From NCBI GenBank assembly GCA_012295275.1, contig CM022665.1, positions 34,410,001 to 34,474,000 of the forward strand: a DNA stretch of 64,000 nt. The letters run 5' to 3'. The stretch is from Chrysomallon squamiferum. Lineage: Eukaryota > Animalia > Mollusca. A program made the translations under genes and the position numbers. Every line of letters starts with the position of its first letter. The first letter of the stretch is position 1. Positions 5,374 through 64,000 of this stretch are shown here, one piece after another. The notes below the pieces were generated by a model. That model worked only from the letters and a program-made list of their open reading frames with translations. It searched no databases and was not told where the DNA came from.

Positions 5374-5422
<49 letters not shown>

Positions 5423-6573: not shown

Positions 6574-6610
<37 letters not shown>

Positions 6611-6835
6611 TTAGTATTACGAATTAATTATATAGTAGTAATAGTAATAATAGTAATAACAGCAGTAATAATAGTAACACTCGTAGTAGTAATAAAGAGT
6701 TTGTCAAGAGAAACAATATATGCTTAAATAATTTCAAAATATAATATTAAGAAAATATTGTTATTATAAAATAATACAGGAATTCTGAAAGACATCCTAC
6801 TACATGATTGTAATATGTTTATGTGTCTGTGTGCT

Positions 6836-6870
<35 letters not shown>

Positions 6871-7236: not shown

Positions 7237-7278
7237 TGTGTACAGTATGGAGATTCTTCCAAAAGCGTACAAGTCTTG

Positions 7279-7389
7279 AATGAAACGGGTGACTGATACA
7301 GAACGGCGTGTTTATTCTCTGAAGTGGAACACACCTCACAGCTGACGTCACTGCCCATGGCATTTGTCGGCCAATTAAAATGCGCGAAA
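7279..7389 (-). promoter_or_regulatory. Proximal promoter of the Rho gene: CRE, CCAAT and E2F-type sites
   Basis: TGACGTCA at 7343-7350, CCAAT at 7371-7375, TTTCGCGC (minus strand) at 7382-7389, all in CpG-containing sequence within about 150 bp of the ATG. Confidence 0.5.
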
Positions 7390-16800: not shown

Positions 16801-19800
16801 TAGCTGTAGCTGCTAGGAGATTTTCTAGTTTTTTCAGCGGTGAGTATGCCCTCTGCATTTTATCCAAATTATGTTTAATGAGCTCCAAGTCAGATCCATG
16901 TGGTGGTGTAACACCTGGCTAAAATCAAACAAATTATTGTGTTCAATCAAATAAATAGTCCTAAAAATATAGAAATGTGAAAGAAACTTTGAAAAATTCT
17001 CAAACTTTTAAATTAAAGTAATATTTTATATTAATTATATAATTTTTTTTTGGTGATTAACAGCATACACAATATTTAGTTGTCTTTATAATATTTTTCT
17101 TTTCCTTCTTTTCTTTTAAAAGATCTGGAATTTGAATAAGAATAAAATAATTATTTTCAAAATAAAACCAAAGATACTTTTGCTGCTAACAACTAATAAT
17201 TAGGAAAATCATTCTAAATTTTTTTATTTAATAATATATATTTGTCCTTGTACATTGAAATCCAACCTTTATTCCAATTTCTTGTGCAGTTTTTGATCGT
17301 GCGTATTTGATATTTCTCGCCATCAAATGCAAGTTGCCATTTCTAAAATAGAAGAACATTAAGCAAAAATATAAATTTCAATGAAAACTACGTTAATTAA
17401 CAGATATTCTGATATTTTCCAGTAAATAAAGGCTTTTTAAAAAGAAAATAATTTGTACACTATGGAGCTTCTAGATTTAACTGCTATATACTTAACATAA
17501 ATTTACTAACTAATTAAAAAGGAGAAACCTCTTTAAAAGAACCTCTTTAATTTCAACACAGTTATTCTTAAAAAGGTATTAAAAGTAATTTTTAATAAAC
17601 AATCTACTAAATTTAATTTTAATACTTTAAAATATTTTCTTTGAATATTAATACAAAATAAAATTGTACTTGACAAACATTTACTTATTATTTGTTGACC
17701 AACTATCTCCTTTATGTGTGTAAAATTGAAATATTAATAATAATAATAACACTTTTTTTTTGGTGAAATTTGGATATTTTTAATTAATTGGGTTTTTTTT
17801 CCAGAGGAAAGTCAATGCTGTATTTAATGTTCTAAAACTCAAAATTCCTCTGGAGAATTTAATTTATTTTAAATAAAGATTTTTTTTCTTCTCTTTTTAA
17901 CTTGCCTGTTATGAGCTTCCACAAAAAGTCTATATATGTGGTGTTTGACAGGGCGTATAACACACACATGTAAAGCTCCTTCAATAAGTGCATCAATATT
18001 GAGAATTTCACTAGCACCAAGCTATAAGAAATAAAACATTGACAGTATCAGAATAAAAGTCAAGCAATATGTATCTCATGGTATAAATTGAAACTGAGGT
18101 TCACTAGGCATATACATCATATTTTATTTGCACAGTAGTTTACTGAAATATTGATGAATAGTCATCTCAGTTATGAGCTTGCTACCAAATATTATGAAAT
18201 GCTGAACTATATATTTTCTATTTAAGTTTGAATTATAGTATATGTTTATTGAGAACAAACTTTTTGCTGATTTTTAATATTTTAAATCTAAGTTGTTAGT
18301 ACCTCTTAAAAAACTTACTTTTTTCCTTTCTCTTTCAATGATGTCTTCTAACTCCCCTTCTCCATGCTTTACCAAATAATTTTTAATTCCTGTCATGAAC
18401 TGTCGAACCTGAAAGAAAGAAATATTACACGTAGAAATATGAATATCAATTTAATTTTTAAGAAAACTAACAACAACAACAACAACAAAATGCTACAAAA
18501 CAAAACCAGAAAACATTATAGAGACAACATAACAATGAAATAACACAAAATACAGAAGAAAACCTCTACTTAAAGTAAACATATTAAAAAACAAGTAGAT
18601 ATGCCAGAAGAGAAAAAATCTCAGTAGAAAAAAAACCCAAGGATAAATAAACAGTGGATATGGAACTGTTTATCATCATAAAGACAGAGAGAAATACTCA
18701 CATTTCTCATAACATTATGTGGATTGGTTTCCTGACTTTCCAAAGTACACTGAATAAAGTTCTCAATTGTGCTGCCAAATGTTGTGCTGTGATCTTGTGA
18801 CAACCTTTAAATAAAGATAACTAGTGGTTGACAGCCTTATCTTGTTCATTAAATAAAAAATGAGATAATAATAAATAAATGAATAAACTGTCAAATACAT
18901 TTTTTTACTGAATTATAAACAATTGAAATTGTTTCTGAATTATAACAATTATCCATTTTCATTTTTTGAAGATATGCTTAATTAATTCCAGGGTAGATAC
19001 ATGTGGTAATATCATATAAAACTGAAATTCAACAAATAATTCAATTTGATCAAATAAATAATACAAACATATAAAATAACAGACAAAATTATTTTTTAAA
19101 CTAGAAAACAATGTAAAAAAAAAACCCAACTATTTAACAATGACTGTCATAAACATGATTAGTTTCAATTCATGTTAACTGTATTTATAATAATAAAGCA
19201 GTCTTACAAATGTTTTACACACAGATTATATTTAAACTAAATATATAAGTTTTTAACCTAAAAATATAGTCCCTGATTTTAGCTCCAGGACTGTTGGTGG
19301 CATGGGGTAATGTTGATGATATTGCTGGAAAAAAAGAAAAAAAGAAGAGAAAAACTAAGATTATCTCTCATTTTTATCAGCCAGCCAGTGATAAAATAAT
19401 TCTATTTTAAATAAAAGTTTAGCCTATGGTTGTAACTGAATTCATTTTCGATTTAATAACTTTTCTTATTTGTAAAATTAACATTTGTTCATTAATTCTA
19501 ACAACAATTCCTAAGTTATAAACATTAGAATTATTTTTAGACTGAATGTGATTAGTTACACTATATCTCTTTTTTAATTGCTTTAGTAGTGCATGTGTGT
19601 GTATCTGTATGTATTGTTTTAAAGATACTAACACACAATAGGCCTCATTCTGTCTTTTAACTCAGCATTCATTATCAAACTCGATTCATCACAAAATACT
19701 GCTCCTTCCAACTCTTCACTTTCATGTTGTTGCAGATCAGTTCTGTTGTCCAAGCAGTTTAGATCTGTTGTACAGTCAGGAACACTGCACTGACTATTAT

Positions 19801-22800
19801 GAGATGTACCATTTGAATGAAAATCTTGAATCTGCTGAGAAATTCTATTAATTAATTGAGTGTTTGGTCTGGAATGATAAATGGACGAGTCTTCATTATG
19901 ATTAAGACTATGAAAATCTTGAGCACCATCTGAATCATCTGCAACAAGAGAATTTCTAACAGCCTCTCCATCAAGTTCTGAATGGAGAGACATACAGTCT
20001 TGTTGTTCAATTTTTGCAGTCTTCCACATCTGTACTCGGTCATTAGCACTCATGTCTGCTTGCAGTTCTGTTTGTTCTGGAGGAAGGAGTTTTGCCCATG
20101 GCTGGTGATCCCATGGTTTGCAAAATACTGTTCCAGCACTGCTGGCAGCAGAGGGTGGAGCATAGAGGTTTAGAAGATTGTCATACTCTGAAACACGCTT
20201 CACATTTGACAATGTCAATGGGATAATTGGTCTAATGGTCAGATCTGGAAGAGCACACGATATCATGTCTTGTACAGTAGAAGACTCAGAGAAGCAAGAT
20301 GTCCGGTTTCCAGCTGAGTCTGTTGGAAGTTTTTTTTTGTAAACTGGAAACTTATTTAATGTTGGGCTTTGAACATTTTCACCGTTCTTCTCCAGATCTT
20401 CCAGAGAAAACAAAACATCATCTAATTTATTTATTTCTTGTAAATTTAAATCTTGAACTATTTTATGGTGACTGCTATGCTCACTTCTTTGATTCTGAGA
20501 ATCAACCAACTTAAGTTTTGAAAACTTTTCTCGCCAACTATTTTGTCGAGTGATTTTTGCTTTTTTCTCACTTGCTACTTTCAAACTTTGACTTCTCTGC
20601 AGATTTTTTTTCTGTGCAGAAGATTCAGCTAATGAAGGACGATTTTCAAGTCTTTCTGATGCAAATGAGAATACTTTATTATGTTCATTTTCTGACATGT
20701 GTTCCTGTTCATCTCTAGGTGAAAATATAGTATCCAGTGTTGTTTTTTGTGAAACTCTGAACTCTGTTTTTTGAAACTTTTGACTATTCCATTCTTCTGG
20801 AAGATTAGAAGGGGCCGATGGTGCAGAACATCTTCTGATCCTCACACTAATGGACTGACCTTTAGATCCTTTAAGATGAACAGCATCAGCTGGTTCTGCA
20901 TATACTGGAGATGCTGTTGTTGACAATGAAGACGTCGAAGAAGATTTAATTCGTGACAATCTTGGCAGTGGTGGTGGTTTAGTTTTGGGAGCAGAGTTTA
21001 AATTTTGGGAAAGTGGACTTGAATTGGAATAAACTCTTACTGGATTGATTTCCACTGTTGAAGTATGTTCGTGGCTTTGTAATATCCTGTTTTCACTGGA
21101 GGTTGTCACTGAAGTTGTGCTCAAGTCTTTTTGAGCTTCTGCTTTCTCCACAAGTACTCTACTACCTTCTCTTTGTTCTGTCTCTTTAACCATATTTTGT
21201 TTTTCGTCACTTTGTGCTCTCACTGTTCCCATGGCTATTGCTTTGTGAATATTGCATTTTGGAAGATTTTCCTCTTCTAGAGGAAAAAGAGATGAATGTC
21301 TTATGTCATTATGTACAGTTGGAACAAATGGCCCAGGACTGTTAGTTGTCTGGGTTGACATATTGCACTTGATGTTATTAATATTATTGCTCTCATTTTC
21401 ACTCAAATTATTTTTCCAAATGTCCTCATAGTCACTCATTTTGTCAGAGAGATCACTTCGAAAGTAACTCTGGTCTGGGATATGCAACCAGTCCAATGAT
21501 GTGGTGAAATGAAGTGAAGATTTGCCTCTTTCAGATACTCTAGGATGAGTCTGAGATCTTAAATCAACTTGTTGTTTGTACCCTTTTAATGTGTGTTGTG
21601 AACAACTTTCTCTATTGCCTTCAGATTGCTGCTGATCTCCATTTAAATGAACTGTGGGTATAACATGTCTCTTCTGATCAACTTCATCAAAGTTATGAGA
21701 AACAATGTTAGCATTATCACTCTGAATGACTTTAATTTGAGCTGCTTTTCTCTGATATCGCTGAGGAGAATCCTGTGCAGGTTGTTGAAGAGGGTTTTTG
21801 TTTTTCAAAAACTTAGAAAAATCACCAACAGAATGAGAAATGACAGTATTGACTGTTTCAAGAGGAGGATGTTTGTCATGAGATGGAACTGTTATGTTTA
21901 TTGGTTCGCTAGATGATTTATGTAAAGGAGATGCACAAGGCAGATTATCTGAATTAGCACTCTGTGATATTTTGGATAGCCAGAAATCTGCAATAAGAAA
22001 ATAAAAAATTACAAATAACAATTCAACTAATAAATCCATTTTTACTCCTCACTGGCTTTTTGGTCAAACAAAATAATTTCTGTAGATGGAAAATTTAAAT
22101 GACTCTCTTTTTCTTTTAAAGCTATAATAATTCAAATATAAATAACTTACCTTGTCCCAGCATATCAAGAGCAGACAATTCTTGAGCAGACTTTGCCTGT
22201 AAAATAGCTGCTGGCAACAGCAACAGACTAGGCAACTCATCTCTGAAATATAATCATACATAAATCCATTTTATAAAAAAAATATAATTAAAATAAATAC
22301 AACAAGAAACAATTTACTGGGATATATTCATATTTTGCTTGTTTAAAGATGTTCATTATTCACAAAATAATTGATGCCTTAGGCATATCAGATATCGATT
22401 ATCACATCTGGATTTTAATTTTATTGTATAGTTGTTCAAATTTTTTTTCTTTTGAACTGTGTCTGAATGTCAGATATATAAATTTGATTGATAGCTACTT
22501 ATTAAGTACTTATAAGTAATATTTTAAAAAATATATTCTGAAACTAATCAGGCTTATACATGTTACAGAAACTGTTTAATAGGGTGCCTGATTTTACCTG
22601 CAGATTCATTTTGTAGCCTTTAAAAAAATGTGCACCTTAAATTGTGTTTACAAAAAATTCATTAAAACATAAAATAAAAGTAAAAATTTAAAAAGAAAAT
22701 AATACTAAACAAACAAAAAATATTTATTTAGATTTCACCAGTGGCTTGCTTTAGGTATCTGAAATTAGCAGCTTTATAATTTTTTTATTTTTTTTTAAAA

Positions 22801-24631
22801 GCTTCCTTATCAGATCCAGAAAATATTTTACAACACATTGTTAGTATACGTACAAGGTGTGACTGAATTTTAACTGACATAAGCAAAAAACATTCATATT
22901 GCTAAAATTAACAATTATACTTAATGATTTTTCACTGTTTGAAAAAAAGTAACAACCCCACTCACTTGTGTAAAACATAATATTCAATGAGATAAGGTAT
23001 GGATGTAAAAACATGATTGGAACCCTGTAACGTTATGCCATACTCTGTGTTCTCAATAAGGTAATGGTCGACAGTAGATTTGTCTGCATGATGATGCTGA
23101 ACAGATAAAGCCAGAGAATCCTTCTGACTTGATTTACGTACAATGAAAGTCTGAAACAAAACTATGTACATTAAACAAAACAAAGATAATTAAATATTTT
23201 TAAACAATATTATCCTAAAAACAATATTTAAATAAAAAATGTTATAATTAACCAGCCTTGAGCTTAAACCTAAAAAACATGAGACATATTGCAAGCATGG
23301 ACTAGTTTATTGACACATTTCATAAAAAGGAAAAGTGTTGATGTCACTAAAAAGAAACTCCAACTGCTTGTGATTACATTAAATTAACCAAAACATTTAA
23401 AATAATTTATATAAACATGATATTATTATTATTATAAAAATATTTGTGTAAAAACATTTTCATTATTCTGCTAATTTCATACCCCAGTCTCTCTGTCCTT
23501 GAGAATATGAACGGCACCAGTCCGACCAATTTCTGGCAGTAGCCAAATTGAATGAGTCTTAGATATTCTTTCTAATAGGGTAATTGGACGGAGATCAGAG
23601 TCACTACTTTCAGGTGAGCTTCTGTGCTTTTGGTGAAGCTGGTAAAAGTAAAACACAGTGATTAAAAGCTTTATTCACTAGATTCACTACACAAACAGCT
23701 GGATAAAACAAAACAAATTCACCAAAAAAACAAATAATAAAAAATAAAAAATAATATTCTTTTAATTTTTTATTTTATTCTTGTTGTTTATTTTAAGTCA
23801 AAGGAGGAATAAAAATAAAAACATAACTAAAAAAGAAAATATGATTTAATCCTCTAATATGTTACCTTTGAGCAACAATATGTTTTGTTCTTTTTACATA
23901 GAGACGACAATATCTAAGGAATTAGGTTTATCTTCTTATCATAAAAAATTGCACTTTCAAATACATTTTGTTAAATACTGTAACAACTTACTAATCACAC
24001 TGGAAAATATAATTACTTCATTTAGACAAAGGTGTACTGAATTTACCTTTGTAATGTCTTCCACATGATAAAGGGAAGTCTCAGGTGAGAGACTGTCATG
24101 TGTTCGTTCTTCATGGCCACTGTCTGATGTCAAAGTCTGGTCACTGCTGCTTTCACTCTCAATACTTGACTTGCTATTTCTGTAATTTACACACACATAC
24201 AAAACAATAATGATGAAATAAATAAAGAAAGAAATAAAAAAATAAAGTGAAGTAAACTAAAGTAACACAAAAACAAAACAAAACAAAACAAAGAAATATA
24301 AATGTAAATTAAGTTAAATTAAATTAAACATATAAAATAAAATAAAATAAAATAAAATAAAATAAGAAGAATCAAAAACATAAAATAAATAAAGAAAAAA
24401 AGAAATACAAAAAGAAGACAAGCTCTGAATACTCAGTAATTTAAACAATTCATACATTTACCCTAAACTACTTTTCTTTTTGTTTTTATTAACACTGCTT
24501 TTGGTTAATTGTTCTGAATCTTGGGAATCCTTCAAGTTGGGCTTCATGGATGAGGCTATCCCAGGGTAGGGATACAGCTGGCACAAGTCAGTCAGGAGTA
24601 GGTCTAAGTCATTGGCAATATTACTGAGCAA
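13856..24631 (-). CDS. Ras and Rab interactor (RIN1/2/3, Drosophila sprint-like) Rab5 GEF with SH2, VPS9 and RA domains; at least 1423 aa plus an N-terminal exon upstream
   Basis: 18 phase-consistent exons: 24631-24462, 24179-24047, 23638-23483, 23150-22966, 22242-22151, 21987-19633, 19324-19258, 18804-18702, 18408-18319, 18021-17906, 17342-17267, 16918-16787, 16566-16512, 16154-15955, 15596-15473, 14914-14840, 14464-14330, 13863-13856. SH2 (LLERISKTHSIWL...GTFIVRKS), VPS9 (YSPLKKL...LGADDFLPMLIYVL...GEGGYYLTTL), RA (KTLPVRPNMTTKDVC...DYSLFLLVNGEE). Confidence 0.93.
14330..14464 (-). CDS. RIN exon, end of RA
   Basis: CQLAEGLCPQMIK...FAYKRTAANIAWP; either splices at A|gtgagt or reads through to TAA at 14316. 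Confidence 0.9.
14840..14914 (-). CDS. RIN exon, RA
   Basis: MIAHKLKIINSQDYSLFLLVNGE. Confidence 0.92.
15473..15596 (-). CDS. RIN exon, start of RA
   Basis: QGFLKIAIPDE...KTLPVRPNMTTKDV. Confidence 0.92.
15955..16154 (-). CDS. RIN exon, VPS9 core
   Basis: DFLPMLIYVL...GEGGYYLTTLSSA. Confidence 0.94.
16512..16566 (-). CDS. RIN exon supplying LGAD of the VPS9 catalytic motif
   Basis: GQEKRHMSNRGPASLGAD; ccag|...G|gtattt. Confidence 0.9.
16787..16918 (-). CDS. RIN exon, start of VPS9
   Basis: MQRAYSPLKKLENLL; TGT|gtgagt. Confidence 0.92.
17267..17342 (-). CDS. RIN exon
   Basis: NGNLHLMARNIKYARSKTAQEIGIK. Confidence 0.9.
17906..18021 (-). CDS. RIN exon ending at a GC donor
   Basis: LNIDALIEGALHVCVIRPVKHHIY; AG|gcaagt. 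Confidence 0.88.
18319..18408 (-). CDS. RIN exon
   Basis: VRQFMTGIKNYLVKHGEGEL...; AAA|gtaagt. Confidence 0.92.
18702..18804 (-). CDS. RIN exon (RIN-homology region)
   Basis: LSQDHSTTFGSTIENFIQCT...; AAT|gtgagt. Confidence 0.92.
19258..19324 (-). CDS. RIN exon
   Basis: ISSTLPHATNSPGAKIRDYIF; ccag|...AG|gttaaa. Confidence 0.85.
19633..21987 (-). CDS. RIN large exon (2355 nt), low-complexity Pro/Ser-rich linker
   Basis: Lies inside the 803-aa ORF; ttgcag|AT TTC TGG ... GTG T|gttagt. Confidence 0.9.
22151..22242 (-). CDS. RIN exon, end of SH2 (DELPSLLLLP...LGQ)
   Basis: ttcag|...G|gtaagt; continues as D-F-W, typical of the RIN family. Confidence 0.92.
22966..23150 (-). CDS. RIN exon, SH2 core
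   Basis: TFIVRKS...FTSIPYLIEYY; AA|gtgagt. Confidence 0.93.
23483..23638 (-). CDS. RIN exon, start of SH2
   Basis: LLERISKTHSIWLLPEIGRTGAVHIL; ccag|...GGG|gtatg. Confidence 0.92.
24047..24179 (-). CDS. RIN exon, Ser/acidic-rich
   Basis: acag|A AAT...AAG|gtaaat. Confidence 0.82.
24462..24631 (-). CDS. RIN exon (LLSNIANDLDLLLTDL...)
   Basis: ttcag| phase 0; ends GG|gtaaat. Confidence 0.8.
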
Positions 24632-27600
24632 CTGAAAAAGTAAAAGAGTGAAATATATAAATATCAAAAGAATGTTCAGAAGAATGTCTATTTACATATA
24701 AATATTTAAATAATATCCAGAACATCTCCAAATCTATTACATGCATTTTTCATAAACTGTGTCATACAAATAGCTTATTTTATAGCATATCACAACTTTA
24801 ATGAATCATGTTTAATTATGGATGAGGCAGCCGCCAGGCAAATGATTTAATGCATATGCATATATTTATTTTTTTCATGCTGCTGAGAAAATTATGCCAT
24901 ATAACAAAAAAAAAAAAAAAAAAAATGTTCTGTCTTATTTTCCAAAATCATTCAGTATTATCTATTTGTATTTACAAAGGAATTGTTAAATTGTTATTAT
25001 GTTTTCAAAAGAAGGAATGCATACAAATCTTATATTGGTATACTGTAAATAATTATAATATATATATAAGAAGAAGTCAGTTTATCACAGAAATATTCAA
25101 TAATGTCATCTTTTATAACAGTTGTTAAGAACATTTGCAAAAATATAAATTAGAAAATAACATCAGTCATATGTATTAATTTAACAACTACACATTTGTA
25201 TCTGTACCTGGCAGTAAAAATGATGTATAATTGACAACTTTATCAATATACAAAATGTTTATACTAAATGATAGAAGATTATAAAATGCCTTAAACTAAA
25301 TCAAAACAACAAATAAATAAGTGATAAAATAAATAAATGGTAAAATAAATAATAATGATAAACAAAAAATCCAAACCTGACAAACACACTATAATAAAAA
25401 AGTACCTCAAACATTTCATACTAACAGCCTCAAACAAAATATACCTTAAGATTCTAAAATAATAATAAAGGAGGATATTGTGAAGAATCTTTAAATGACT
25501 GTGACAGTGGTTATGTCTAAGTAAAATCAAGTTACATTCTTTCAGCATACTTCTTTTTCTTCTTCTTTTAAAAAAAGAAACAAAAAACAAAAATCTCCAG
25601 TTAAAGGTTTTTTAATATTTTGTGTAGGTATGTGTAATCTATATCAGAACTGTGTTAACAAATACATGTAATTAATATAAATGGGCAATCCATGTTACTG
25701 TTGACAAACATTATTTCTTATACTATTTTTATAATTTAAAACAAAAGAAAAAAAAAGGCATATTTTATATCTAATGCTTCATAAAACAGGGACAAGGAAC
25801 ATGATTTGGTTAATCCTATCAATTTATGTTTATTATCTGCAATAGAATCCTTACTTTATTGCAGAATTGTGTGCTCTGCACTAAAAAGAGGAGTTTCATT
25901 CACTGAACAGCATGTATGGTAATTCTAAACATACTATCCTGCTGGCTTTCCAGTCTAAATAAGTACACATCTAATCTGCAGCTGAAATAGAATGATGCTA
26001 TTTAACAATAGGTGAGATGCAAATCCCACCTGTCAAATGTAGTTTCTGCATAACAAAACTAGAACAAAACACAGCTGCATCTGCTATCTGCATACATGCA
26101 CACATCTTGAACATCTCTTAGCTGTGTCATGCAAGTTGAAAAAGAAGTTGTAAACCAGTGTTACTTAAGATAGTAATGGCTTTATTCTTGTTTTATTAAT
26201 ATGTGTGTGTAATAATAATAATAAAAATAATAATAATAATAGTAACAATAAGGAAACAAAAATAAACAAAAATGTAAATTAATTAAAAATTTAGCCTAAC
26301 ATGCACATTCATAAATTTGTTTTATGGATTTTAAAATTTTAAAAAAATTAATAAATAAAATAAAATTTTAAAATTTTAAAAAAAGAAATAAGAAAAGCAA
26401 TACATTATCATTTAATAATAAATAAATAAATAAATAAATAAAAATAAAAAAATAAAAAAGTAAGAAAGAAAGAAAAAAAAAGAATGGAAAAGAAAGATAA
26501 TTTTGCTTAAAAATTTAGTGCAAGTTTATACTGTTTATAAAAATAACTGATGATGTTTACATTGCAAAAATTATTATGTAGTGAAGTACTGAACAGTGAT
26601 GACAAGCAGTAAACAGTGTAAGCAGCAAAATAAACATGAATGATCAGTGAATGATGTGATAAGATGTTTACAATGGCTCTGATTACTAATGTGTATAATC
26701 AGGGTGGTATAGCAAAGTCAACATTTAACTTACTCAGCTGTTACCAACATAATTAAACAAAAATAAAGAAGTAGCTAGCTGCAGTTTATAGAAGAAAAAG
26801 GAAGCAAATAAGAAGGAAAAAGGTAAAAATATCAAAGGTTCTTTTAAGTACTGTTTATTAATAAAATGATTCTTTTATGTGTTCTTCACCTACAAATTAA
26901 ATTTCATGTGGTACAAATATTTTGTTTAAGCCTCTTGTTAAAATTAAAAAGTTCTTTCTTGAGCATTTTTTCTAAATAATGGAAACAAATATATCTGATC
27001 ACAAATAATTTTAAATATACTTGTCAGCTTGTAGCCAGACAGATACATTTGTTCTCACTGTGGTATTCATTTCATTATTGTCTAAACAGCTCACTGCTAC
27101 TCCTGGGAGGCACTGCCAATGTTAGTTATTCTGATAATAAATAGACATGCATGTGTTAACAAATGTCAGAAGGCATCAAGATGCCTACACACTTGAGGCA
27201 GCATTCAAAATTTCTGAGTGATTTTTGAATGGGAAAACCTTAAAAATTTCAACTTCAAAGATATGCAACAACATCACTGAGTGGTAAAATACTCTCCTTG
27301 ATTTGTTAGGTAAACTTTACATATAAACTCTTAAGTCAAGGTACCACTGTATATATTATGTATGCGTGTGTGTGTGTGTGTTCTCAGTTGGAAAAGTACA
27401 TTATTTGCACACATCAAAATTAAATGAAATAAACAATATCTCATTACACTATACTAGTAATGATCAATAAGGTATCAGTAACACTTTTCCATCTTGAAAA
27501 ATAATATAATAAAGAAGACCTCATAACAGCAAGGAATCTTTTATATATACGCACCTTCCCACAATAAAGGAAAGTACACCTCATATGAATCAGTTTAGCA

Positions 27601-52290: not shown

Positions 52291-55200
52291 ATGCAAACAT
52301 ATTCCAGCAGAAAACCAAAATTTTGGAAAAACAAATATGATGATATTTTTGATTCAGTTGCTGGTTTGCTTTGGCTTTTATTTTTATTTATAAATCTTTT
52401 TTTTTTTCCTTCTTCATTTCTTTGCAGATATCACCAAAATTTACTAATTTTATTACACTGAGAAAGAATTATAAAAACTAAGGTGTGAACAGATTTTAAC
52501 TGAAATATTTGGTTGTTTTCACTATTAAAACAATGTGTTTTGCTTTCATTTTTGCCTTAATTTGAAATTGATAGGTGTTAAATAATTTTGCAGGTTTTAA
52601 GTTAGGTTTTAAGATAAATGTTTTTAATTCAACCTTTTGTTTAAATAGCTCCTAAAGCAAAGCAGCTGTTTGTGGAATCCTGGTTGAGACAGCTTCCTGA
52701 CAGAATGGAACCAAACATTGAAATCTTGCGAGATGATGTATGCAAGTCACGTAAGGCATTGTATTTTGGAGAATGTTTTTTTTTTATCAAGTAGCCTATA
52801 CACATTACATTAATAAATACAGTTAATCTTGAATAAGAATAAAATACAGTTAATGAAGAAGGAAACATTTTGATGTTTTCTTGCACAATTTGAATATTAA
52901 AAAAGACAAAGCAAATAATTTGTTTTCAAATACTAAACATTTAAACATAAAATGAAAGTTGAAGTGATAATATTTTTAGAAAATATTTTTGAATGTGAGT
53001 TTAGTCAAATCATGCTAGGTTGGTATTCAGCAGAAATATAATTGAGGTAAAAAGTTTTAAAAGAAATATTATGTCTGATATCTTCCTAAGGAAAAATGTT
53101 AAAGACATTATCTATGCCGAATAAAGATAATGAAAAAAAATCAAAAAAGAATAAGTGATAATTTAACTGAAAACTAAAATACACCATATGACATTCTTAT
53201 TTTTTACAAACTGTTTAAACTGAAAATAATATTTATGAAAAATTAAAGTATATCTTAATGTATAAAACAAATCTAATAATCATTTCACAGAATACATAAA
53301 GTACTTAACACCTTAATTGGTAGAAACCTAGCAAATTGTAGTTAGTAAATATCTGCTTAGTATGAAAAAAAAAAGGTATATAAAAAAACAACTCATCTGT
53401 AAAAGGAGGAATAGGTATATAACACACATATCCATGTCTATTCTTCAATTTTATTTACTGTTAGAAATGCAAATGAACCTTTATAATTTCAGTAAAAAGG
53501 TTCATTTTATCTATTTTGTTTGGCTATTTATTTAGGACTTGATAGGAAACCTTCAGGCAGCTCCATTACAGATGTTATTGATGTTAATTCCATACTTCCA
53601 GGAAAGGAATACAGAAAATTTAATAAACCAGATATTTGTAAGTATAACATTGCTGTTGAAGATAACTGCTAAAGGAAGATTTGTATTTTTCATTTCTATA
53701 ATTCTGTGTAAAACAGTAATGTGTGATAAGCACTTGAAAAAGCATTATTAATTAATATCTGATATCTTGTAATGAAAGATGACAAATACATGACAGACTG
53801 ATGGATATAACATATTTGCTGTTGATCAACTGACTGATAGTGAAAATAAATACATTTACATTAGGTTTTCTGTTTTAATATTGTAAATTGTATGAATTAA
53901 TTGTTATGCTTATTAAAAAAGATGAAGTATTTTTAAATTGTTGAATTTGGGTTAATCATTAACCTGAATAATTCCAGTAATTATAGCTAAAATTTAATTA
54001 TGTTTTTAGATAAAACTGTTATAAGCAAACCAAGACTTCCAACACCAATACCAAATATATCAATTAGTCAAACAGCTGAAAACAACACAACTGAGGGTAA
54101 AACAGAAATATCAGACTTAATAAGCACACAGATAACTGAATCTGTGATCAGTGATGACAAGCATGACACATCTGATGAAACTGATGATGTTGAAATCTCA
54201 CATATATACACATGGACCACAGCATCAACCACACCATCTTCTGAAAGTGAGTTTATTATGTCTCAGTCACAGCTTCATAAAAAGAAAATAAACTAAACAG
54301 CATCAAAACTACCTCAAAAAATATTTCTAAAATGAAAAATAAACTAAAGAAGTCAAACTAAATTGTATTGTTCAGTTTGTTGATTGATTGAACATCTCTG
54401 TTTACAATTATTTAATCACTAATAAGAAGTATTTTGTACATTAAATTATAGCATATGAAGAAATATTAAATATTACAAACTTAATATGATATCAATATTG
54501 TATGAATTAATTGTTGTTGCTTATTAAAAAAGATGAAATATCAGTACTGAAAGGAGATGTGAAACTATTTTATATTAATTTTATTGTTTTAAAGCAAGAC
54601 TGTCATCTATTATTTTTCTGTTGCATTCCTAAGTGGAATTCTAATTTATTTTTGTGGTCACAAATTTTTAAATATATACTTTACCATGATTGGAATAAAC
54701 TGATAAATTGTATAGGAAATATGTGATGTATATTTCATTGTTTTATGGTTAAATACATTTTACTGAAACTGTTAGGTAAAATACATGAAGAATCATCAAA
54801 AGAGAAAAAACATTTTGGGAAAGTGTCAACAACAAGTATTCACTGGAAAACACTGAGGAAAAAAGTGTTGAATTCCACAGCAAAGAATGATGCAAAAAAT
54901 ATAGAATCTGTGAACTTCTCTCAAAATTTTTCTTATATTCAGAATCATGATACTGAGTGTGGTAATAACATATAAATTGTTTTTCTATTTACATATGAAT
55001 AGTTTCATTTTAAAAATTACTTAAAATTACTGTTTAAATTACAATTTAAATTTAACCTATCTTTTAAATAAATATTGTATCAAATATTGGATAGAGATTG
55101 TGAAACTGTTTCATATTAATTTTATTGTTTTAAATTAAGACTGTCATCTGATATTCATCTGTTTCATTTCTCAGTTGAATTCTTATTTATTTTTGTGGTC

Positions 55201-58200
55201 AAAAATATTAAAATAAATATTTCACAATGACTGCAAAAACTGATAAATGGTATAAGAAATATATGATATACATTTCACTTTTTTATAGTTAAATACTCTT
55301 TACTTAAAATGTTTAGGTAAAATACATGAAGAATCATCAAAAGAGAAAAACGATTTTGGGAAAGTGTCAACACCGAGTATTCAGTGGAAAACACTGAAGA
55401 AAAAAGTGTTGAATTCCACAGCAAAGAATGATGCCAAAAATATAGAATCTGTGAACTTCTCTCAAAATTTTTCTTATATTCAGAATCATGGTACTGTGTA
55501 TGGTAATAAAATGTTAATAGTTTTATTCTTTACATACAAATAGTTGCATGTCAAAAATTATTTGTAATAACAGTTTAAATTGAACCCATCTGTATAATAA
55601 ATATGACAAATTTAATATGATATAAAGTCCTGGAAGGCGACTGTGAAATTGTTTCGTATTCATTTTATTGTTTTAAATTAAGACTGTCATCTGATATTCA
55701 TCTGTTTCATTTCTCATTGGATTTCTTATTTATTTTTGTGGTCAAAAATATTTAAATAAACACTTCACAATGACTGCAAAAACTGATATATGATGTATAT
55801 TTCTCTGTTTTATAGTTAAAAACTATTTACTAAACTGTTTAGGTAAAATACCTGGAGCATTGTCAAAAGAAAAGAAAAAATACAGGAAAATGTCAGCACC
55901 CTGTATTTGTTGGAAAACACTGAGGAAAAAGGTGTTGAATTCCACAGCAAAGAATGATACAAAAAATATAGACTCTGTGAACTTCTCTCAAAATATTTCA
56001 TCTATACAGAATTATGATTCTGTGTATGGTAAAAAATATTAATAATTTTACTCTTTACATACAAATAGTTGTATTTTAAAAACATCGTTTAAAAATAGCT
56101 TAAATTACAATTTAAATTTAATCTATCTATTTAATAAATATTACAAATTTAATATCATATCAAGTCCAGGAAGGAGACTGAACAACTGTTTCACATTCAT
56201 TTTATTGTTTTAAAGCAAGAGTATCATCTGCTACTCTTGTGGTGAATTTCTCAGTAGAATTCTTATTTATTTTTATGTTGCTTATTATATCTAGACAGGA
56301 TCTTCTTTTTATTTTCTATTATTATAACTTTTTTGTGGTCAAAAATATTTAAATATATATAATTTACAATGACTGGAAATATGTGATATACATTTCATTG
56401 TTTTATAGTTAAATACTATTTACTGAAACTGTTTAGGTGAAATACATGGAGAATCATCAAAAGAGAAAAACGATTTTGTGAAAGTGTCTAAACCCACTAT
56501 TTGTTGGAAAACACTGAGGAAAAAAGTGTTGAATTCCACAGCAAAGAATGATGCAAAAAATATAGAATCTGTGAACTTCTCTCAAAATTTTTCTTCTATA
56601 CAGAATCATGACACTGAGTGTGGTAATAAAAAAATCATAGTTTTACTCTTTACATACATATTTTAAAAATTACATATAATTACAATTTAAATTACAAGTT
56701 TAATCCATATTTTTAAGTTTCAATAATTACTGTTTATTATTGGTAATATTTATTTAGTATAAGTATTAGCTGTTGATAGAAATTAATCAGTGTGCTCTAG
56801 TAGCTTCCTTAAACAAACCAAACAAAAAAAAATTGATTCATTTAACTCTATCATTTAAAAATGAATATCCTTTTTTAATTTACAGGTGCATCAAGACAGC
56901 AGCAATTGGAAGAGTCAACACCATTTAGACACAGAGATAATTCAGTTCACAAGTTGGTATATGTGTATTACATTCAGTGAATTAAATTCATTTTGCAATT
57001 AAATATGATAACATTTATTTTTTACGTCTTATTAACATATGCTTAACTGGAATTCTTTGACCTGAAGTACAAACTATTTTCCATTTGGCACTAGCCTGAA
57101 ATGCTAAAACATACATGGCATTTTATGACTAGCAAAAAGTATTGGGCTGCCTGCATTCACATTTATTTCATAAATAATTAAGAAGAAAAATGTTTTTGAT
57201 TTTTTATCTTATATCCCAACATGCATGTAACTTCAGTAGCTAGAAGTCAGATCTGTTAGTAGTACTTGTGTTTGAATTTACTTCCTGTTCCATTATTTTA
57301 AAAATAATATTACAGAAGTAGTAGTTTACTGAGACTCCACCAAGATGATTTTTAGGCAAGATTCTAGTACTCAAAGAATTGAATTCCATTAGCTACTGCC
57401 AATCGTTACACCTATTATTAGTACCTTATTAGAAGCATTTTATCAGACAAAGTTATAGTATGTTGGTTATTACAGAACTTTAGTGTTTTGGGGTTGTTAC
57501 ACAATATTTTTATTATAAATGTTGATTACTTGTAATAATTATTTGCAAATGTTTGGTTATGAAAATTGAATTTTGTTTTGCTCTGACTTTTGCTTATAAC
57601 TTTATTTATTTTAAAATATTTTATTTTTGCTTGGGGCTTGCTGTCAGAAATATTTAGACATTAACGTATTTTGTGGTCATCCATTTACAATAATTAATAT
57701 TTTAAAATATCAAAAGATATAAATGTAATTAATGTGGTCTTACAAACAAAGTGAACAAAATATAAACAGGATGTTTTTGTTCTTTTTTTTTCCTTTTTGT
57801 TTTCTTTTTTTTCTTTTTTCTTTTATAAAATTTAATACTTTTTAAATTCTGTAATATTAATTAGAGAATAATTATTATTTGCCTAAAGTACATGTTCCAC
57901 AATATCATTTTTGTACAGTTTACTTCAATTAAAACTGCACATTTTTCAGTGGTGAAAGCCAGAAAAAACTGCAAAAAAAAGCTAAGAAACATTTGATCTC
58001 CACAGTTTTGTATCAGTCGGGTACAAATATTGAAGAAACATTTAATGTTACATCATCAATTTTTACCAAAGGTAAGCCATACAACACGACTATCTTATTT
58101 GCATTTTATATTTTTTTTTTTCTTCAAAAGGATTTTGGAAACAGTTTAGAATGAAAAATAATTGAACATAGTGAAAACTTTCCATCTGCTTGAGAAAGAT

Positions 58201-61200
58201 TACAGTCATACATAGAAAAATGAAAACACATGTAACATTCTTCACCATAGTAAAGTGGCAGAAATGAAAATCAGATTGGTAGGTCTATAGATGCTGACTC
58301 TGTTGCTTTTCATCTTTCAGATGCAATAACATTAATGCTTGTTTCATAATCTTTAGAAATTATTTATTTTGGTGGGAATCTGTTTTATATTTATTTATTT
58401 ATTTTTTCAAAAATTTTATTCTTGAAGTGATTTTAATTCTCAAGTTAAAGTTTTCTCAGAAAACACATTTATTTGAACATTATTTTATAGGATGTAATGT
58501 TACAGATGGATCAGATAAAACTTTGAAAAAGAAATCTGAAGAAGTCACAACAGAGTCACTAGGTGATAAAACAGTGACACCTTATAAAAAGGTAATTCTT
58601 TAAAAATTTAATGCATAAACAAACTAATTCATGTTCTTTAATTATTTCCCTTTTTTTTCATGTAATTTTAATCAATGCATGCTCAATAACTAAATTAGAG
58701 GTGATTGGTCTCAGTTCATGAATATTTTTTCTTTTTACTGAACACTTTAAAAACTATTTTGTTACTACTTTTTCTTATTTTTTGGAGTAAAATTTTAATG
58801 TGTAATGAAAATTAATATTAAAAAACAAAATTAAAAAATATATATTCAAATTATTTATCATAACAAAATTCTTTAATAAATTTTTGATTCCATACTGCTT
58901 TGAGGATGATAATTTTGTAAAGCTAGCTACTGTTTGTTTTTGTTTTTCTTACTATTATATTTTGTATTTACTTGATCTTTTTTTTCACTAATTATTCTGA
59001 CACTGAATATAGTTCATTTTGGTAATGCTTAAATAGTTATTTTTATCACATAAATAAATGCATTGATTAAAATAATATAAGCAGTTATAATTTATTATGC
59101 AGGTGCAAATTCCTAAGTGTGCATTAACCAGTACTCCCATCATGGACACTGCAAAGAACCACCTTCCAGCACTGCATGTAATGAATAAACTGATGTTTAT
59201 TTTATTTTAACATAGTTTTAATAAAATTGTTTTGGTTTCAATATTCTGTAAAGTTTAGATATGTAAAACATTTCTTTTTAATAGAAATCAAAATTATGTT
59301 TTATTTGGATCTTTTCTTACAGAAATTAAAATGATATAAATTTCAAATTTAAATAATTGATTTCAAAATATATATATCTTATCAGCCATTTATTATTTTA
59401 TTTTACATTTCTTCATATTATGATTTATGTGCTTTTAACTCTGCATTTAAAAATTACAAATAAAGACATTATGTTAAGTATATAAAAATTAACAGTGAAT
59501 CAACTGATGCATAAATTAATAGAGATTCTAAATAAATAAAAAAATAATTTTGACTGTACACTTAGTCTTTGGTTTATATAACTGTTTATATAATTTTTGA
59601 GGAGTCACTTAAAGTGGTATAAAATCACTACTATCTAATGTTATTAAATGCATGTGTACTATTTATAAATATAATCCCTATTTTGTTGGTAAAATACACA
59701 TTTTGGCTCTAATTTCATTTTGTTCTTACTTTTTCATATATGCTTGCTATAAAAGCTTATTTTCTTCTGTTTATTTGATGCCAAAGTATTTTTAATTATT
59801 TTTCAGGTTTTCATTTAATTGCTATAGATAATTCAAACTGGGGTATAATATTTGCTTACTGTAACTGATTAACGAGATAATTAAAACAACAGACAGTTTT
59901 ACAGAAATTTGACATTTATAGAATGCTGTTACTTTTATAGTTATTTAAAAAACCCAACAAAAACAAAGCAATCATTTGGAAACATACAAAAATATTTTAA
60001 GGGTATTTGTTCATACCATTGCTGCACTTTAAATTTTTTTTTCTTTTTTCTGTAAACATTATTAATTTCTTTGGGTGAATTACCATGATCCCATTAAACA
60101 TTTTAATGTTTGTCAGTAGCTTAGAAAAAACTTCTTGAAATATTATTTAAAACATAGATTGATGTGTCCTCTCTGGGACCACCAAGCTCAGACTCGAATG
60201 ACATTATCTTCCTAAGGCAGTCTGAGAGTATGGTTAATTCAGAGGAGATAGTGGCTGAAAGTTTTGATGAGGATGTAGAATTTCCAGATGTGAAGGTTTG
60301 TTATTTGTCTCACAGAATACTAACTTGAAGTGTACCTTTTACAGATCTGTGGAAGTATAATGCAATATAACCAGTTAAAAAATAAATAAAAAAATAAAAA
60401 TGTGTATGTTGTTAAATAAAACTTTTTTTCTTTAATAGGATAATGTGAAAGAGGTAAAATAATTTTTTTCTTTTAAATAATTTTTTTTTGTAATTTTGAA
60501 AACACTTTTTCTATAATCTTTATTTTTATATCATTGTGAAAATAATTAATCTTTATTTACTTCTTCCAGGACATATGTTTTGAAATGTCCAGCTCAAAAG
60601 TAGATGTTAGAAATGAACATCTTGGATTATGTGTTCAAGTGAAAACTAATAATGCAGCATCAGAGAAAGCACGACAGAAAGTTAATAGAAATGGCCTTAA
60701 AAACATTTTTGGGGAAAAAAAGATGAAAAATGTGCATTTTCCTTCAAGATGCAGAAATAAATATATTATTAATAAAAAGAATAGGCAAAAGTCAGTGAGA
60801 AAGTCAGAAGTCACTGAAAGATATCAAATTAAAAGCCAAACCAGTCTAAATGTCTGTTCTGCCTCCATTGTGCCAATTGGACCCATAACAAAACCCACAG
60901 AGATCATACATATCAAATCACCTAGCAAGCAGTTCTGGGAAAGAATCAAAACCTTTCCTTTTGGTAAGTAAAGTAATAATAATAATAATAACAATAAAAC
61001 TCATTAGTATCAGTGGTTAAAATGTATAGGCTGAATTTATGTGTAACTATCAAATTTCATGCATGTAAACAACTGCACTAAGATATTTAAAATAGACTGA
61101 CATACTTAAGATATTTAAAATAGACTGACATACTTAAATACATGAAAGGTATTATTTAATTTCAAGTAATTGACACTTTGCTACAGAAAACTGTTCTGAA

Positions 61201-62221
61201 GATTGCTAATAGATGCATTATGAATTCTTGAAATTGCCCAGGTATAGGTTGAACAGACAGAAATTATGTCCATAAAAGAGCATTATAGACTTTTGTAGAG
61301 AGGTGTTTCTTTGACACCTGAGATATCACTGTCCTGTTTGTTGTGGTACTGCCATAGATCTCCAACAACTGATTTTGCACCTGTTTCAAGTATGTTAAAT
61401 GTTTTGGCCCTGACTACTCTGTTGGCTTTAGTTTTCACAGCTAACTCCTTCAAATTGTTGGTGGTGCATTTAGGCCTGTCTGGAAATTGGACTACCATTT
61501 GATTGGTAATGCTTTGCCATGCATCCTGATTCCTTAAGTTTAATTTAATGTTATTATGCCATTCAGTTTATGCCATTCTTTGAAAAATAGTAAACTCACA
61601 TCTCGGATTTATGAAATATTTGCCTGAAATGATGTAATCATATGAACAATATAAAGTTACAAGTTACACGTTTTGATAAAACATGATAAAAGCAGGTGTT
61701 TGGCCACATGTGTACAAGTGTAATTTTAGTCTGTGTTTAAAGCTTGTCTACATACAAGATAAATGTGTGATAATCACCTTTCATAAATTTGGCCTTATTT
61801 GTTTTATAATAATTTATAACAATTCACTGGACATGGCCTCATGGGTCTCAAAAAAGTCCATTTCAGTGTGCATTCTAAAGATTTCTTTTACCAGGACAAT
61901 GATATATTCTTTCTTATTTATGAAAAGGTCTTTTTAAAAATCCTTTGTTGGTAAGGGAAAAATAGTGCATACTTATTCCTAAAGATAATAACTGTGTTAA
62001 ATATAATTAAATATGCAACATCAAATAACCAATGACAGAAATTAATATGTTGTAATGATGATGCAATACATAATCAAATTTTTAATAATATTTTTGTTTT
62101 GTTTTGCCTCCTGTAAATTTATTTTTTATTATTTATTTATTTATTTTATTTTTTTTAAGATCCTTTAACAACCATAATGAAAAGAAAAGCTAAACTGAAG
62201 ATTACATCTACAGCTTCTTGA
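52291..62221 (+). CDS. Multi-exon protein, about 743 aa, putatively MEIKIN (meiosis-specific kinetochore protein)-like
   Basis: Phase-consistent exons: 52291-52363, 52649-52750, 53536-53637, 54010-54246, 54776-54961, 55317-55502, 55843-56028, 56437-56622, 56886-56952, 57950-58071, 58491-58591, 59103-59177, 60158-60295, 60439-60453, 60570-60963, 62160-62221 (last exon least certain). Total 2232 nt, open throughout. Motifs LTSTP, IDVSSL, VNSEEIV and EIIHIKSP are collinear with recalled MEIKIN blocks. The gene model is better supported than the product name. Confidence 0.7.
54460..56710 (+). repeat. Four tandem exon+intron units (period 541, 526, 594 bp), each with a 186-nt exon
   Basis: WKTL(R/K)KKVLNSTAKND(A/T)KNI(E/D)SVNFSQN recurs four times with homologous intron flanks (tttattgttttaaa..aaga.t.tcatct). 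Confidence 0.95.
60570..60963 (+). CDS. Large basic exon of the MEIKIN-like gene
   Basis: cttccag|GAC...TTT G|gtaagt; overlaps the 128-aa ORF. Confidence 0.82.
61079..61137. repeat. 28-bp perfect tandem duplication
   Basis: taagatatttaaaatagactgacatact twice. Confidence 0.9.
61283..61567 (-). mobile_element. Myb/SANT-like DNA-binding domain relic (PIF/Harbinger ORF2-type)
   Basis: NLRNQDAWQSITNQMVVQFPDRPKCTTNNLKEL..KTKA...ETGA follows the K..AW..I...........RT..QLK..W..LK..AK...TGGG pattern; intronic and antisense. Confidence 0.55.
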
Positions 62222-62536
62222 TCAAGTGTATCTATCAAAATGAAAAGTGTTACTCTGCTTATTATTTGTTTTTATATGGCAGGCTCCATTATTTTCATAC
62301 AGAACAATTGTATTTGTTTATCAGAATATTGTTCAGTGTTATATTAATTTGTTTTCAAATACACAGTTTGTGTGTTATATCATTTCAGATGAAATAGTTT
62401 GAATATTAAATAATATTTATTAAATATATTATTGTGCAGTGTATTTTCTTAACTATTACTTAGTAATCATCGGTGGGTTTTATAATAATTTTGTGATACC
62501 AGTCTAAATTACTGGAAGATGTTATAAACACCATAA

Positions 62537-62695
62537 TTGTTGAACTTTTAAGCTAATATTAATGTTTTCAATTCTTTAGTGTTTAATGACTTGTATTTTA
62601 TAAACAGCTTATTTGTTGAACTTTTAAACTAATATTAATATTTTCAGTTCTCTAATATTTCACTGACTTGTGCATTTTAAAAGCAGGTTGGTTAT
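62537..62695. repeat. Diverged tandem duplication, unit about 77 bp
   Basis: ttgttgaacttttaa(g/a)ctaatattaat...tgacttgt twice. Confidence 0.8.
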
Positions 62696-64000
62696 TTCAG
62701 AAGAGCATTTAATGATCAATTATTAATGTATTCAGCTGGTCCTGCATGTTAATGTCATTTTCAGTTTAATTCAGATTACCACTGATTTGATTTGTTTTGA
62801 CTTATTTTATTGATAAAATATATTATTGATTAATTAATAGATCTTCAATGGTTACTGAAATTCAGATAAATGTTAATAAAAATAACTGAAAATTATTCAT
62901 GTCAGTTAAAAATGCAGTAATTTGCATTTTGGTGTACAAAAATGTGGTACTAAAATGTTTTGTTAACAACATTCACATGTAACCTTATCACCCAATCTCT
63001 CAAAATATTAGTAAATTGGATTTTCATTCTTAAATTTTCTACTAAGAATTAACCTTTTAATCTTAGCACAGAGACCTTGAGGTGACAAACTACTCCCGTT
63101 AGCCTTCTGTTTATTTCCAGATATTCACAGAAACATTTAAATGACAAATAAAACAAGGGATCTCTTGAACTAAGTAATGTCAGTGTGATCTGTAACACAA
63201 TTCTCTGACTACTGGAAAATGGAACAATTGTATTTAATCACAATTTTGTTGCATATTTATATGCCCAGACCACAGTTCTCATTTGGCATCTTATCCCTCC
63301 CATGAAATGTGGGACATATCAAGAATCTACTGACAGACCTCGACGGGACAGCCATTATCACTTCAGAAAAAAATATCTTATTAACTGAAGCAGTTTCTTT
63401 TACTTACCTTATGGTATATAAATCATGGTACATGTTCTTTCTGATAAGCATTAGTATAACACATTGTTTTCTCCTGGAACATCATTCTTTTTGCAGTAGT
63501 CATTATTATTTTTTCAAAATGTAAGTTTAAGAACTAAGTTGTATATATAATTGATCACATTACATACATAAATATGTTAGCCTTGTAAACATTTTATCCA
63601 CTGTTACATTTACTGAAATGATGGATATGTTGTAGATACACAGTGAAATTGTTACTATCACCAAGTATTTAATTATTTTATTAGTCATATATTTTCAAAT
63701 GATATAAATCATTTGGTTGGAGTTTTTTGTCTTGTTAAATTACTTTGTTGCCTCTTATTGTGGGCTGTGATCTAATTCATTGTCATATATTTTGTAAAAA
63801 GCAAACTGTCAGTGCTGTTTCAATAAAGACTGTTGTATACCATAATTTTTTTTGATCTTCTGTCACTAGTAAGTAAACTACTTTGAGTCACTCATATGAC
63901 ATAAAGATTGTTTTACTTCTGTCAGTTCATGCAGTATTCCACAACAGACTTTTCAGCTCTCATGAACAATTTGTCACTTCTTGAAAGCTGAAATATGAAC

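What the first reader, a model, noticed from the sequence alone, without database searches (positions are those of the whole stretch)
52291..62221. Probable invertebrate MEIKIN-like gene hidden in 16 small exons
Seen in the sequence: a phase-consistent ORF of about 743 aa that the ORF track shows only as fragments. Compared with human MEIKIN as I recall it, these blocks occur in the same order: QTYSSRK ~ RVYTRKK; LEESTPFRH ~ EESFPSPELFRK; ISTVLYQSGTNIEETFNVTSSIF ~ NSTLLDTSKAVAIEKAPQFSNVSAIF; KTVTPYKK ~ KTCPSTPEKTKK; ALTSTP...IDVSSL ~ LLTSTP...IDLSSV; MVNSEEIV ~ YVNSNEIV; EIIHIKSP ~ EICCIIRTSP. Established: MEIKIN recruits PLK1 through an S-pT-P motif and binds CENP-C through its C-terminus. 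It is usually described as the vertebrate member of the MOKIR group, whose other members (Spo13, Moa1, Matrimony) are not alignable to it. Inference: a true sequence homologue in a probable mollusc would date this meiosis-I mono-orientation system back to the bilaterian ancestor.
Basis: partly seen in the sequence, partly recalled or inferred. Interest (0 to 1): 0.85.

Follow-up and report, generated by a model that had tools for sequence, protein, structure and literature searches.

The report
Snail Polo-docking gene, possible MEIKIN
This snail gene is real, partly confirmed as spliced in RNA and shared end to end with a related vent snail; its predicted unfolded protein likely docks the cell-division kinase Polo much as the vertebrate meiosis protein MEIKIN does, but true kinship with MEIKIN could not be tested directly and stays about a one-in-three guess.

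Summary
The gene is real: 16 GT-AG exons splice to 743 aa. RNA contigs support six junctions but skip exon 5, implying 681 aa. One homologue was found: Gigantopelta aegis LOC121372323, 'uncharacterized', 45% identical, collinear from Met1 to the last exon. It has no kinase, so Haspin is rejected. Both snails keep three S-T-P sites, one separase-type IEILR, an N-terminal TYS[ST]RK and two C-terminal hydrophobic motifs, with no predicted folded domain. That layout resembles MEIKIN. Homology is unproven. No MEIKIN sequence or profile was available and the Atlas showed none. Only the tight LTSTP / IDxSS / NSxEIV trio stands out (1 of 5147 shuffles), which is too weak once a whole proteome is searched. 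Verdict: a likely Polo-docking chromosome protein; MEIKIN orthology about 30%.

The parts
52291..52363 (+). Exon 1 (coding part): MQTYSSRK, a near match to Pds5-binding YSR-type motifs, and KYDDIFD
   Evidence: 17 of 24 aa identical in G. aegis
52649..52750 (+). Exon 2: VESWLRQLPD (10 of 10 conserved, predicted short helix) and separase-type NIEILR at 52714-52731
   Evidence: RNA contig length fits exons 2-3
53536..53637 (+). Exon 3
   Evidence: RNA loose end equals its last 30 nt
54010..54246 (+). Exon 4, acidic S/T-rich, with conserved YTW.TAST
   Evidence: RNA covers 54010-54246 exactly
54776..54961 (+). Exon 5, repeat copy 1 (STT in place of STP); skipped in the RNA seen
55317..55502 (+). 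Exon 6, repeat copy 2, the only copy keeping the S-T-P found in G. aegis (55367-55375); LNSTAKND core
   Evidence: RNA joints 54246>55317 and 55501>55842
55843..56028 (+). Exon 7, repeat copy 3
   Evidence: RNA joints in X1, and 7>8 also in X2
56437..56622 (+). Exon 8, repeat copy 4
   Evidence: RNA joint 56621>56885
56886..56952 (+). Exon 9: RQQQLEESTP (10 of 10 conserved), S-T-P at 56915-56923
   Evidence: RNA ends at 56952 and continues with the first 30 nt of exon 10
57950..58071 (+). Exon 10: QKKLQKKAKK (10 of 10 conserved) and the ST..Y.SG.NIEE.F...SSI block
58491..58591 (+). Exon 11, poorly conserved (10 of 34); holds KTVTPYKK
59103..59177 (+). Exon 12: conserved C.LTSTP, best predicted polo-box docking site (59121-59138)
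60158..60295 (+). Exon 13: ID[VL]SSLG, DII.LR, [VI]NSEEIVA.SF (31 of 46 conserved)
60439..60453 (+). Exon 14, predicted 15-nt micro-exon; absent from G. aegis, untested in RNA
60570..60963 (+). Exon 15: basic stretch, then conserved PIGPI.KPTEI[IV][HY]I and FW helix
62160..62221 (+). Exon 16: DPLTT[IL]M, stop TGA 62219-62221
   Evidence: G. aegis ends on the same motif

Best explanation
This is a spliced snail gene, conserved end to end in Gigantopelta aegis, whose predicted disordered protein likely works as a Polo-kinase docking scaffold on chromosomes in the manner of MEIKIN. Inferred mechanism: CDK1 would phosphorylate the conserved S-T-P sites (exons 6, 9, 12) so that the polo-box domain binds. 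Polo would then phosphorylate nearby non-proline sites (LNSTA, ID[VL]SSL) and neighbouring substrates such as cohesin. The two C-terminal hydrophobic helical motifs would anchor it to a kinetochore or chromosome partner. Separase would cut at IEILR and release the short N-terminal piece with its YSR-like motif. Shown: gene, splicing at six junctions, conservation, absence of a kinase. Inferred: every binding, phosphorylation and cleavage step, and any meiotic role. Descent from MEIKIN is left open (about 0.3).
For: The orthologue is collinear at 45% identity over 509 aa, E 1e-105. Conservation is patchy, in short motif islands. G. aegis has three S-T-P sites, all with counterparts in the window (146 of 5000 shuffles, 2.9%, reach three). 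Its only ExxR is conserved, fits the separase consensus [D/E/S]-hydrophobic-ExxR and lies upstream of all S-T-P sites, as MEIKIN's does. AlphaFold2 on the single G. aegis sequence gives pLDDT 37.5 with short helices only at the conserved VESW and C-terminal motifs; the Atlas model agrees (pTM 0.13). The LTSTP/IDxSS/NSxEIV trio scored against the two-snail profile is reached by 1 of 5147 shuffles; a five-block version by 0 of 2566. The repeat core is more conserved among copies than their introns (9 of 102 against 56 of 196 variable columns, p 5e-5).
Against: Motif counts in the window protein are mostly at shuffle level: Plk consensus 7 against 7.3, ExxR 2 against 1.7, [ST]P 7 against 6.2; S-T-P 3 against 0.8, p 0.04. 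A consensus separase site arises in 10.8% of shuffles, and the window copy has Asn at P6. The N-terminal motif fails the strict Pds5 consensus (Gln for Lys/Arg). No family, PDB or Atlas hit points to chromosome segregation. Only two species are in hand, so conserved islands may reflect recent shared ancestry. Tissue of expression is unknown.
Confidence: 0.5

Rival explanations
1. It is the true orthologue of vertebrate MEIKIN: a meiosis-specific, CENP-C-bound Polo adaptor inherited from the bilaterian ancestor. This is a stronger form of the best explanation.
For: Tight three-block core conserved in both snails, 1 of 5147 shuffles; G. aegis improves the middle block (IDLSSL). Three S-T-P sites, as in human MEIKIN. 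Two C-terminal hydrophobic motifs start 32 and 11 residues from the G. aegis end, against ICCII at 333 and DIII at 367 of 373. No folded domain.
Against: Eight-block chain beaten by 1000 of 1000 shuffles. About 6-12 trio-level matches expected across a human proteome (my estimate). No ExxR at the aligned separase block; S-T-P sites spread over 150 aa rather than 25; DIII not matched; KTVTPYKK lost. No MEIKIN cluster among the Atlas rows shown. The one human intron found in print (after c.638, phase 2) has no counterpart at the aligned place. Polo-docking motifs recur in unrelated proteins such as CENP-U, BUB1 and M18BP1.
Confidence: 0.3
2. It is an unrelated, fast-evolving disordered nuclear protein (for example a DNA-repair or chromatin adaptor) whose MEIKIN-like motifs are chance.
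For: Motif counts near shuffle level. Best named Atlas row is a BRCA1 serine-rich fragment at 0.75, a score below what shuffled proteins often reach. No relative found beyond one snail.
Against: All three S-T-P sites and the single ExxR of G. aegis have counterparts in the window at 46% overall identity; the trio beats shuffles.
Confidence: 0.3
3. It is a Pds5-binding cohesin regulator of the Wapl, Sororin or Haspin-tail type, acting through its N-terminal TYS[ST]RK motif.
For: The motif is conserved at the extreme N-terminus (17 of 24 aa) and resembles KTYSR and [R/K]TYG[R/K].
Against: Fails the strict consensus at one position; no FGF motif, Sororin box or Wapl HEAT domain; exon 1 finds nothing in the PDB at E up to 10.
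Confidence: 0.12
4. It is the N-terminal tail of Haspin, or a CENP-U-like kinetochore subunit, with its folded domain in exons beyond the model.
For: S-T-P sites, a basic stretch and a TY motif resemble Haspin's tail; PLSSTAVY in G. aegis recalls the CENP-U T78 site (recalled).
Against: The annotated G. aegis isoforms X1 and X2 end on the same DPLTT exon with no kinase or long helical region; I saw no kinase-like frame in 60900-64000 (by eye).
Confidence: 0.03

Closest known systems
Gigantopelta aegis LOC121372323 (XP_041354551.1 X1 556 aa, XP_041354552.1 X2 515 aa, XP_041354553.1 X3 420 aa), 'uncharacterized protein'
   Same: Orthologue: same start, motif order and terminal exon; 259 of 557 residues identical to X1.
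   Different: One copy of the exon that is fourfold here; no micro-exon 14; X2 lacks the PIGPI-EIVYI-FW segment and X3 stops after exon 13.
Vertebrate MEIKIN (human 373 aa; Maier et al., bioRxiv 10.1101/2020.11.29.402537)
   Different: Longer (556-743 aa); separase-type site near the N-terminus and without the S-P; S-T-P sites widely spaced; no ICCII or DIII as such; a basic insertion of about 120 aa before the C-terminal motif; no demonstrated sequence homology.
MOKIRs (Spo13, Moa1, Matrimony)
   Same: Polo-box motif in an otherwise unconserved protein; these are described as not conserved except at that motif (PMC7614391).
   Different: Meiosis-specific expression and function are untested here.
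Pds5-binding YSR-motif proteins (Wapl, Haspin, Sororin, ATRX)
   Same: A TY-S-basic motif at the N-terminus.
   Different: Imperfect consensus; none of their folded or box domains.

Membership tests
MEIKIN | Significant match to a vertebrate MEIKIN profile, with reciprocal hit | not testable with these tools
MEIKIN | Look-alike by language-model features (Atlas, Pfam 38.1) | tested here: inconclusive
   No MEIKIN among the rows shown for P0001 whole (3 rows, best 0.82) or P0002 200-556 (1 row, 0.75); only clusters of 50 or more members are searched and low scores are hidden.
MEIKIN | S-pT-P polo-box docking motifs | tested here: met
   Three in each snail, at corresponding places; binding untested.
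MEIKIN | Three S-T-P motifs clustered within 25 residues (T251, T264, T276) | tested here: not met
   G. aegis T206, T261, T355; window T252, T431, T527.
   EESTPFR has no ExxR and the Arg is Lys in G. aegis. A different conserved site, IEILR at aa 48-52, exists.
MEIKIN | C-terminal isoleucine-rich motifs ICCII and DIII that bind CENP-C | tested here: inconclusive
   EI[IV][HY]I and DPLTT[IL]M are conserved near the end, but no D-III pattern.
MEIKIN | Shared intron positions | tested here: inconclusive
   One human intron found in print (after c.638, phase 2); none at the aligned place, in a poorly conserved region.
MEIKIN / MOKIR | Germ-line-restricted expression; kinetochore localisation via CENP-C; Polo binding | not testable with these tools
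   RNA contigs in 2 of 3 RNA runs of one study, tissues coded; no snail PLK1 or CENP-C sequence was in hand.
Haspin | C-terminal Haspin kinase domain | tested here: not met
   Orthologue ends on the same short exon; no Pfam hit.
Sororin / Wapl | Sororin box and FGF motif, or Wapl HEAT domain | tested here: not met
   No FGF, no Pfam hit, no folded domain predicted; Sororin-box consensus absent by inspection.
Pds5-binding YSR motif | [R/K]-[S/T]-Y-[K/S/T/G/A]-[Q/R/K/A] (PMC12264150) | tested here: not met
   QTYSS in the window and QTYST in G. aegis miss the first and last positions.
CENP-U | C-terminal helical region of about 165 residues | tested here: not met
   Only helices of 4-9 residues predicted, from a single sequence.

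The most novel reading that the evidence does not exclude
The gene is a protostome orthologue of MEIKIN: a separase-cleaved, CENP-C-anchored Polo adaptor for meiosis I that dates to the bilaterian ancestor, here with one conserved Polo-site exon amplified fourfold and alternatively spliced to tune kinase docking.
Probability: 0.3. Interest if true: 0.75.

Novelty: new member of a known kind. Interest (0 to 1): 0.42.

Why it matters
MEIKIN is called a vertebrate factor and its yeast and fly counterparts are said to share only the polo-box motif. An alignable snail orthologue would move this meiosis-I system back to the bilaterian ancestor and give a handle for finding it in other invertebrates. 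Even without orthology, an uncharacterised gene now has a verified structure, a named orthologue and testable Polo-docking and separase sites. As it stands it is a candidate, not a demonstration.

Tried and rejected
No whole genome is held. Pfam on 11 of the 16 exons and on P0001: nothing near a cut-off; a CENP-C_mid hit (E 0.033, 14.4 bits against 27) on the lysine-rich exon 15 was dismissed. Word-based homologue searches with exon 15 (0 of 46 candidates) and exon 13 (0 of 7) failed although an orthologue exists. phmmer of exon 15 on 1.84 billion representatives found 0, yet G. aegis X1 would score 64 bits, E 1.5e-12, and X2 only 17 bits, so that blank says little about other molluscs. Simulation shows the successful pooled-exon search is reliable only from about 60% identity. 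PDB searches with exon 1, exon 13 and P0002 gave 0, 0 and 1 chance hit. Two metagenome scans found no relative. The Atlas could not read new sequences. Earlier-findings look-ups by place, relatives and sequence were empty. RNA run X4 laid nothing (no proof of absence). The 'goes back 592' joint in the DNA run is explained by a 45-bp duplicate just outside the laid stretch, not a rearrangement. Synteny is uninformative: upstream neighbours are an orphan, a RIN-like gene and a Rho GTPase; the downstream side is outside the window. No complex was folded because no PLK1, CENP-C or Pds5 sequence was in hand.
Full report
1. The observation. The snail-side peptides named in the finding are on the + strand in order. 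Sixteen exons with AG/GT ends splice in phase to 743 aa from ATG 52291 to TGA 62221. The protein is 20% Ser+Thr and 16% Lys+Arg. Exons 5-8 are four 186-nt phase 1-1 copies, 83-95% identical, duplicated together with their upstream introns; the introns carry indels, the exons none. A 34-codon core is more constant among copies than the introns (9 of 102 against 56 of 196 variable columns, Fisher p 5e-5), whereas the whole exon is not (41 of 186, p 0.16). Selection or gene conversion could each give that.

2. RNA. The run search listed 4 runs; 3 are RNA from one study, and 2 of these hold part of the gene. Contigs laid on 53950-57000 show GT-AG joints exon 4>6, 6>7, 7>8 (two runs) and 8>9, and loose ends identical to the end of exon 3 and the start of exon 10. 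Exon 5 has no RNA cover and one contig joins across it, so the sampled mRNA would have 15 exons and 681 aa. Depth is low (about 4-9), contigs drop rare forms, and tissue is coded.

3. Orthologue. A profile pooling three exons found 1 protein among 260 candidates: Gigantopelta aegis LOC121372323, 'uncharacterized', E 5.7e-15, with no precomputed Pfam domain; its cluster holds three isoforms. With one repeat kept, the model aligns at 45% over 509 aa, E 1e-105, and 259 of 557 residues match isoform X1. tblastn recovers 14 of 16 exons. Both genes start with the same motif, and the window model and isoforms X1 and X2 end on the DPLTT exon, so there is no kinase and the Haspin alternative falls. The window therefore comes from a related snail, as earlier notes on this genome also guessed (unchecked). 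No other relative was found, but the searches reach only close ones.

4. Anatomy. AlphaFold2 on X1 alone gives pLDDT 37.5, no residue above 70, and helices only at 30-37, 494-497, 534-542 and 547-555; a single-sequence model is weak evidence, but the Atlas model agrees. Conserved islands: MQTYS[ST]RK and KYDD.FD; VESWLRQLPD; IEILR; YTW.TAST; KTL.KKVLNSTAKNDAKN; RQQQLEESTP; QKKLQKKAKK; C.LTSTP; HID[VL]SSLG; NSEEIVA.SF; PIGPI.KPTEI..I; FW; DPLTT.M. G. aegis has three S-T-P sites and one ExxR, all with counterparts here. Of the four repeat copies only exon 6 keeps the S-T-P; the skipped exon 5 has lost it.

5. Testing the MEIKIN claim. Best ungapped scores are 15, 19, 19, 15, 25, 20, 27 and 11, sum 151. 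Ordered chains of eight blocks of up to 8 residues against 373-residue shuffles score 160 or more in 1000 of 1000 trials (mean 176), so the list as given is no evidence. The comparison favours the null, since the hand sum is not optimised. The tight trio LTSTP, ID[VL]SSL, [VI]NSEEIV scores 72 for the window (24 of 1000 shuffles) and 73 for the two-snail profile (1 of 5147; 24 reversed or unrelated real windows scored 52-61). Five blocks score 112 (0 of 2566, maximum 110.5). I read this as p of about 2-4 in 10,000 for one comparison, with spacing limits chosen after the fact. Across about 30,000 such windows of a human proteome (my estimate) 6-12 chance matches are expected, and more among Polo ligands, which share such motifs (PMC13161223, abstract and passages). 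Against homology: KTVTPYKK is lost in G. aegis, the block aligned to the separase site has no ExxR, DIII is unmatched, the Atlas rows show no MEIKIN, and the single human intron in print (PMC13218795, passages) has no counterpart. For it: the trio is conserved in both snails, and the overall order of separase site, three S-T-P sites and two terminal hydrophobic motifs matches.

6. Mechanism. Most likely (0.5) the protein is a disordered Polo-docking scaffold: CDK priming at S-T-P, polo-box binding, secondary Polo sites, a C-terminal helical anchor, and removal of the N-terminal 52 residues by separase at IEILR, which fits [D/E/S]-hydrophobic-ExxR in G. aegis (PMC12609080, passages) but has Asn at P6 here and occurs in 10.8% of shuffles. 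All of this is inferred from motifs whose counts are mostly at shuffle level. The N-terminal motif resembles Pds5-binding YSR motifs but misses the consensus (PMC12264150 and PMC10656103, passages). It works like a MOKIR on paper; it is not filed as MEIKIN, because two defining features were not met and the key ones could not be tested.

7. Literature. Reviews name MOKIRs in yeasts, flies and mammals and say they share only the polo-box motif (PMC7617577 and PMC7614391, passages). Searches for meikin with invertebrate (5 papers, listing; passages of PMC13101349), with mollusc (1 paper on plant securin, listing only), with vertebrates, Moa1 and Matrimony (1, listing), with zebrafish, Xenopus and homolog (2, listing) and for LOC121372323 (0) showed no title, abstract start or passage reporting an invertebrate MEIKIN. 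Kim et al. 2015, Galander and Marston 2020 and the journal version of Maier et al. were not available (for the last two), and their alignments and supplements could bear on the range of MEIKIN.

8. Verdict. Observation confirmed with corrections; interpretation partly supported. A real, uncharacterised gene with a credible Polo-docking layout and about a 30% chance of being a protostome MEIKIN. Interest 0.42; 0.75 if orthology is shown.

Noticed in passing
window 54776-56622 (+): Fourfold tandem duplication of one exon with its upstream intron; single in G. aegis; three copies are spliced in series and the first is skipped in the RNA seen; only copy 2 keeps the S-T-P.
   Followed up: yes
window 53885-53930 and 54495-54540: A roughly 45-bp near-identical stretch on either side of exon 4, next to the first repeat unit; possibly a relic of the duplications.
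   Followed up: partly
window 48915-47358 (-): Head-to-head neighbour: a tentative three-exon gene of 186 aa rich in S/T-P sites, with no Pfam hit on its exons; the second donor is weak and the model is unverified.
   Followed up: partly
window 51047-50940 (-): A short ATG-started open frame (36 codons) upstream of that neighbour that reads like coding sequence; no Pfam hit; possibly an upstream ORF or a separate exon.
   Followed up: partly
window about 14400-24700 (-): RIN-like gene: SH2 and VPS9 exons above Pfam cut-offs flanking one 806-codon disordered frame.
   Followed up: partly
window 876-7311 (-): Rho-family GTPase in two exons separated by a long intron; nearest solved structures are TC10, Cdc42 and Rac1 at about 90 bits.
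   Followed up: partly
window 61283-61567 (-): A 94-codon open frame with higher G+C inside the last intron, on the opposite strand; no Pfam hit; perhaps a mobile-element remnant.
   Followed up: partly
P0001, P0003 (G. aegis isoforms X2, X3): Annotated isoforms drop one or both conserved C-terminal motifs, which would remove the predicted anchor while keeping the S-T-P sites.
   Followed up: no
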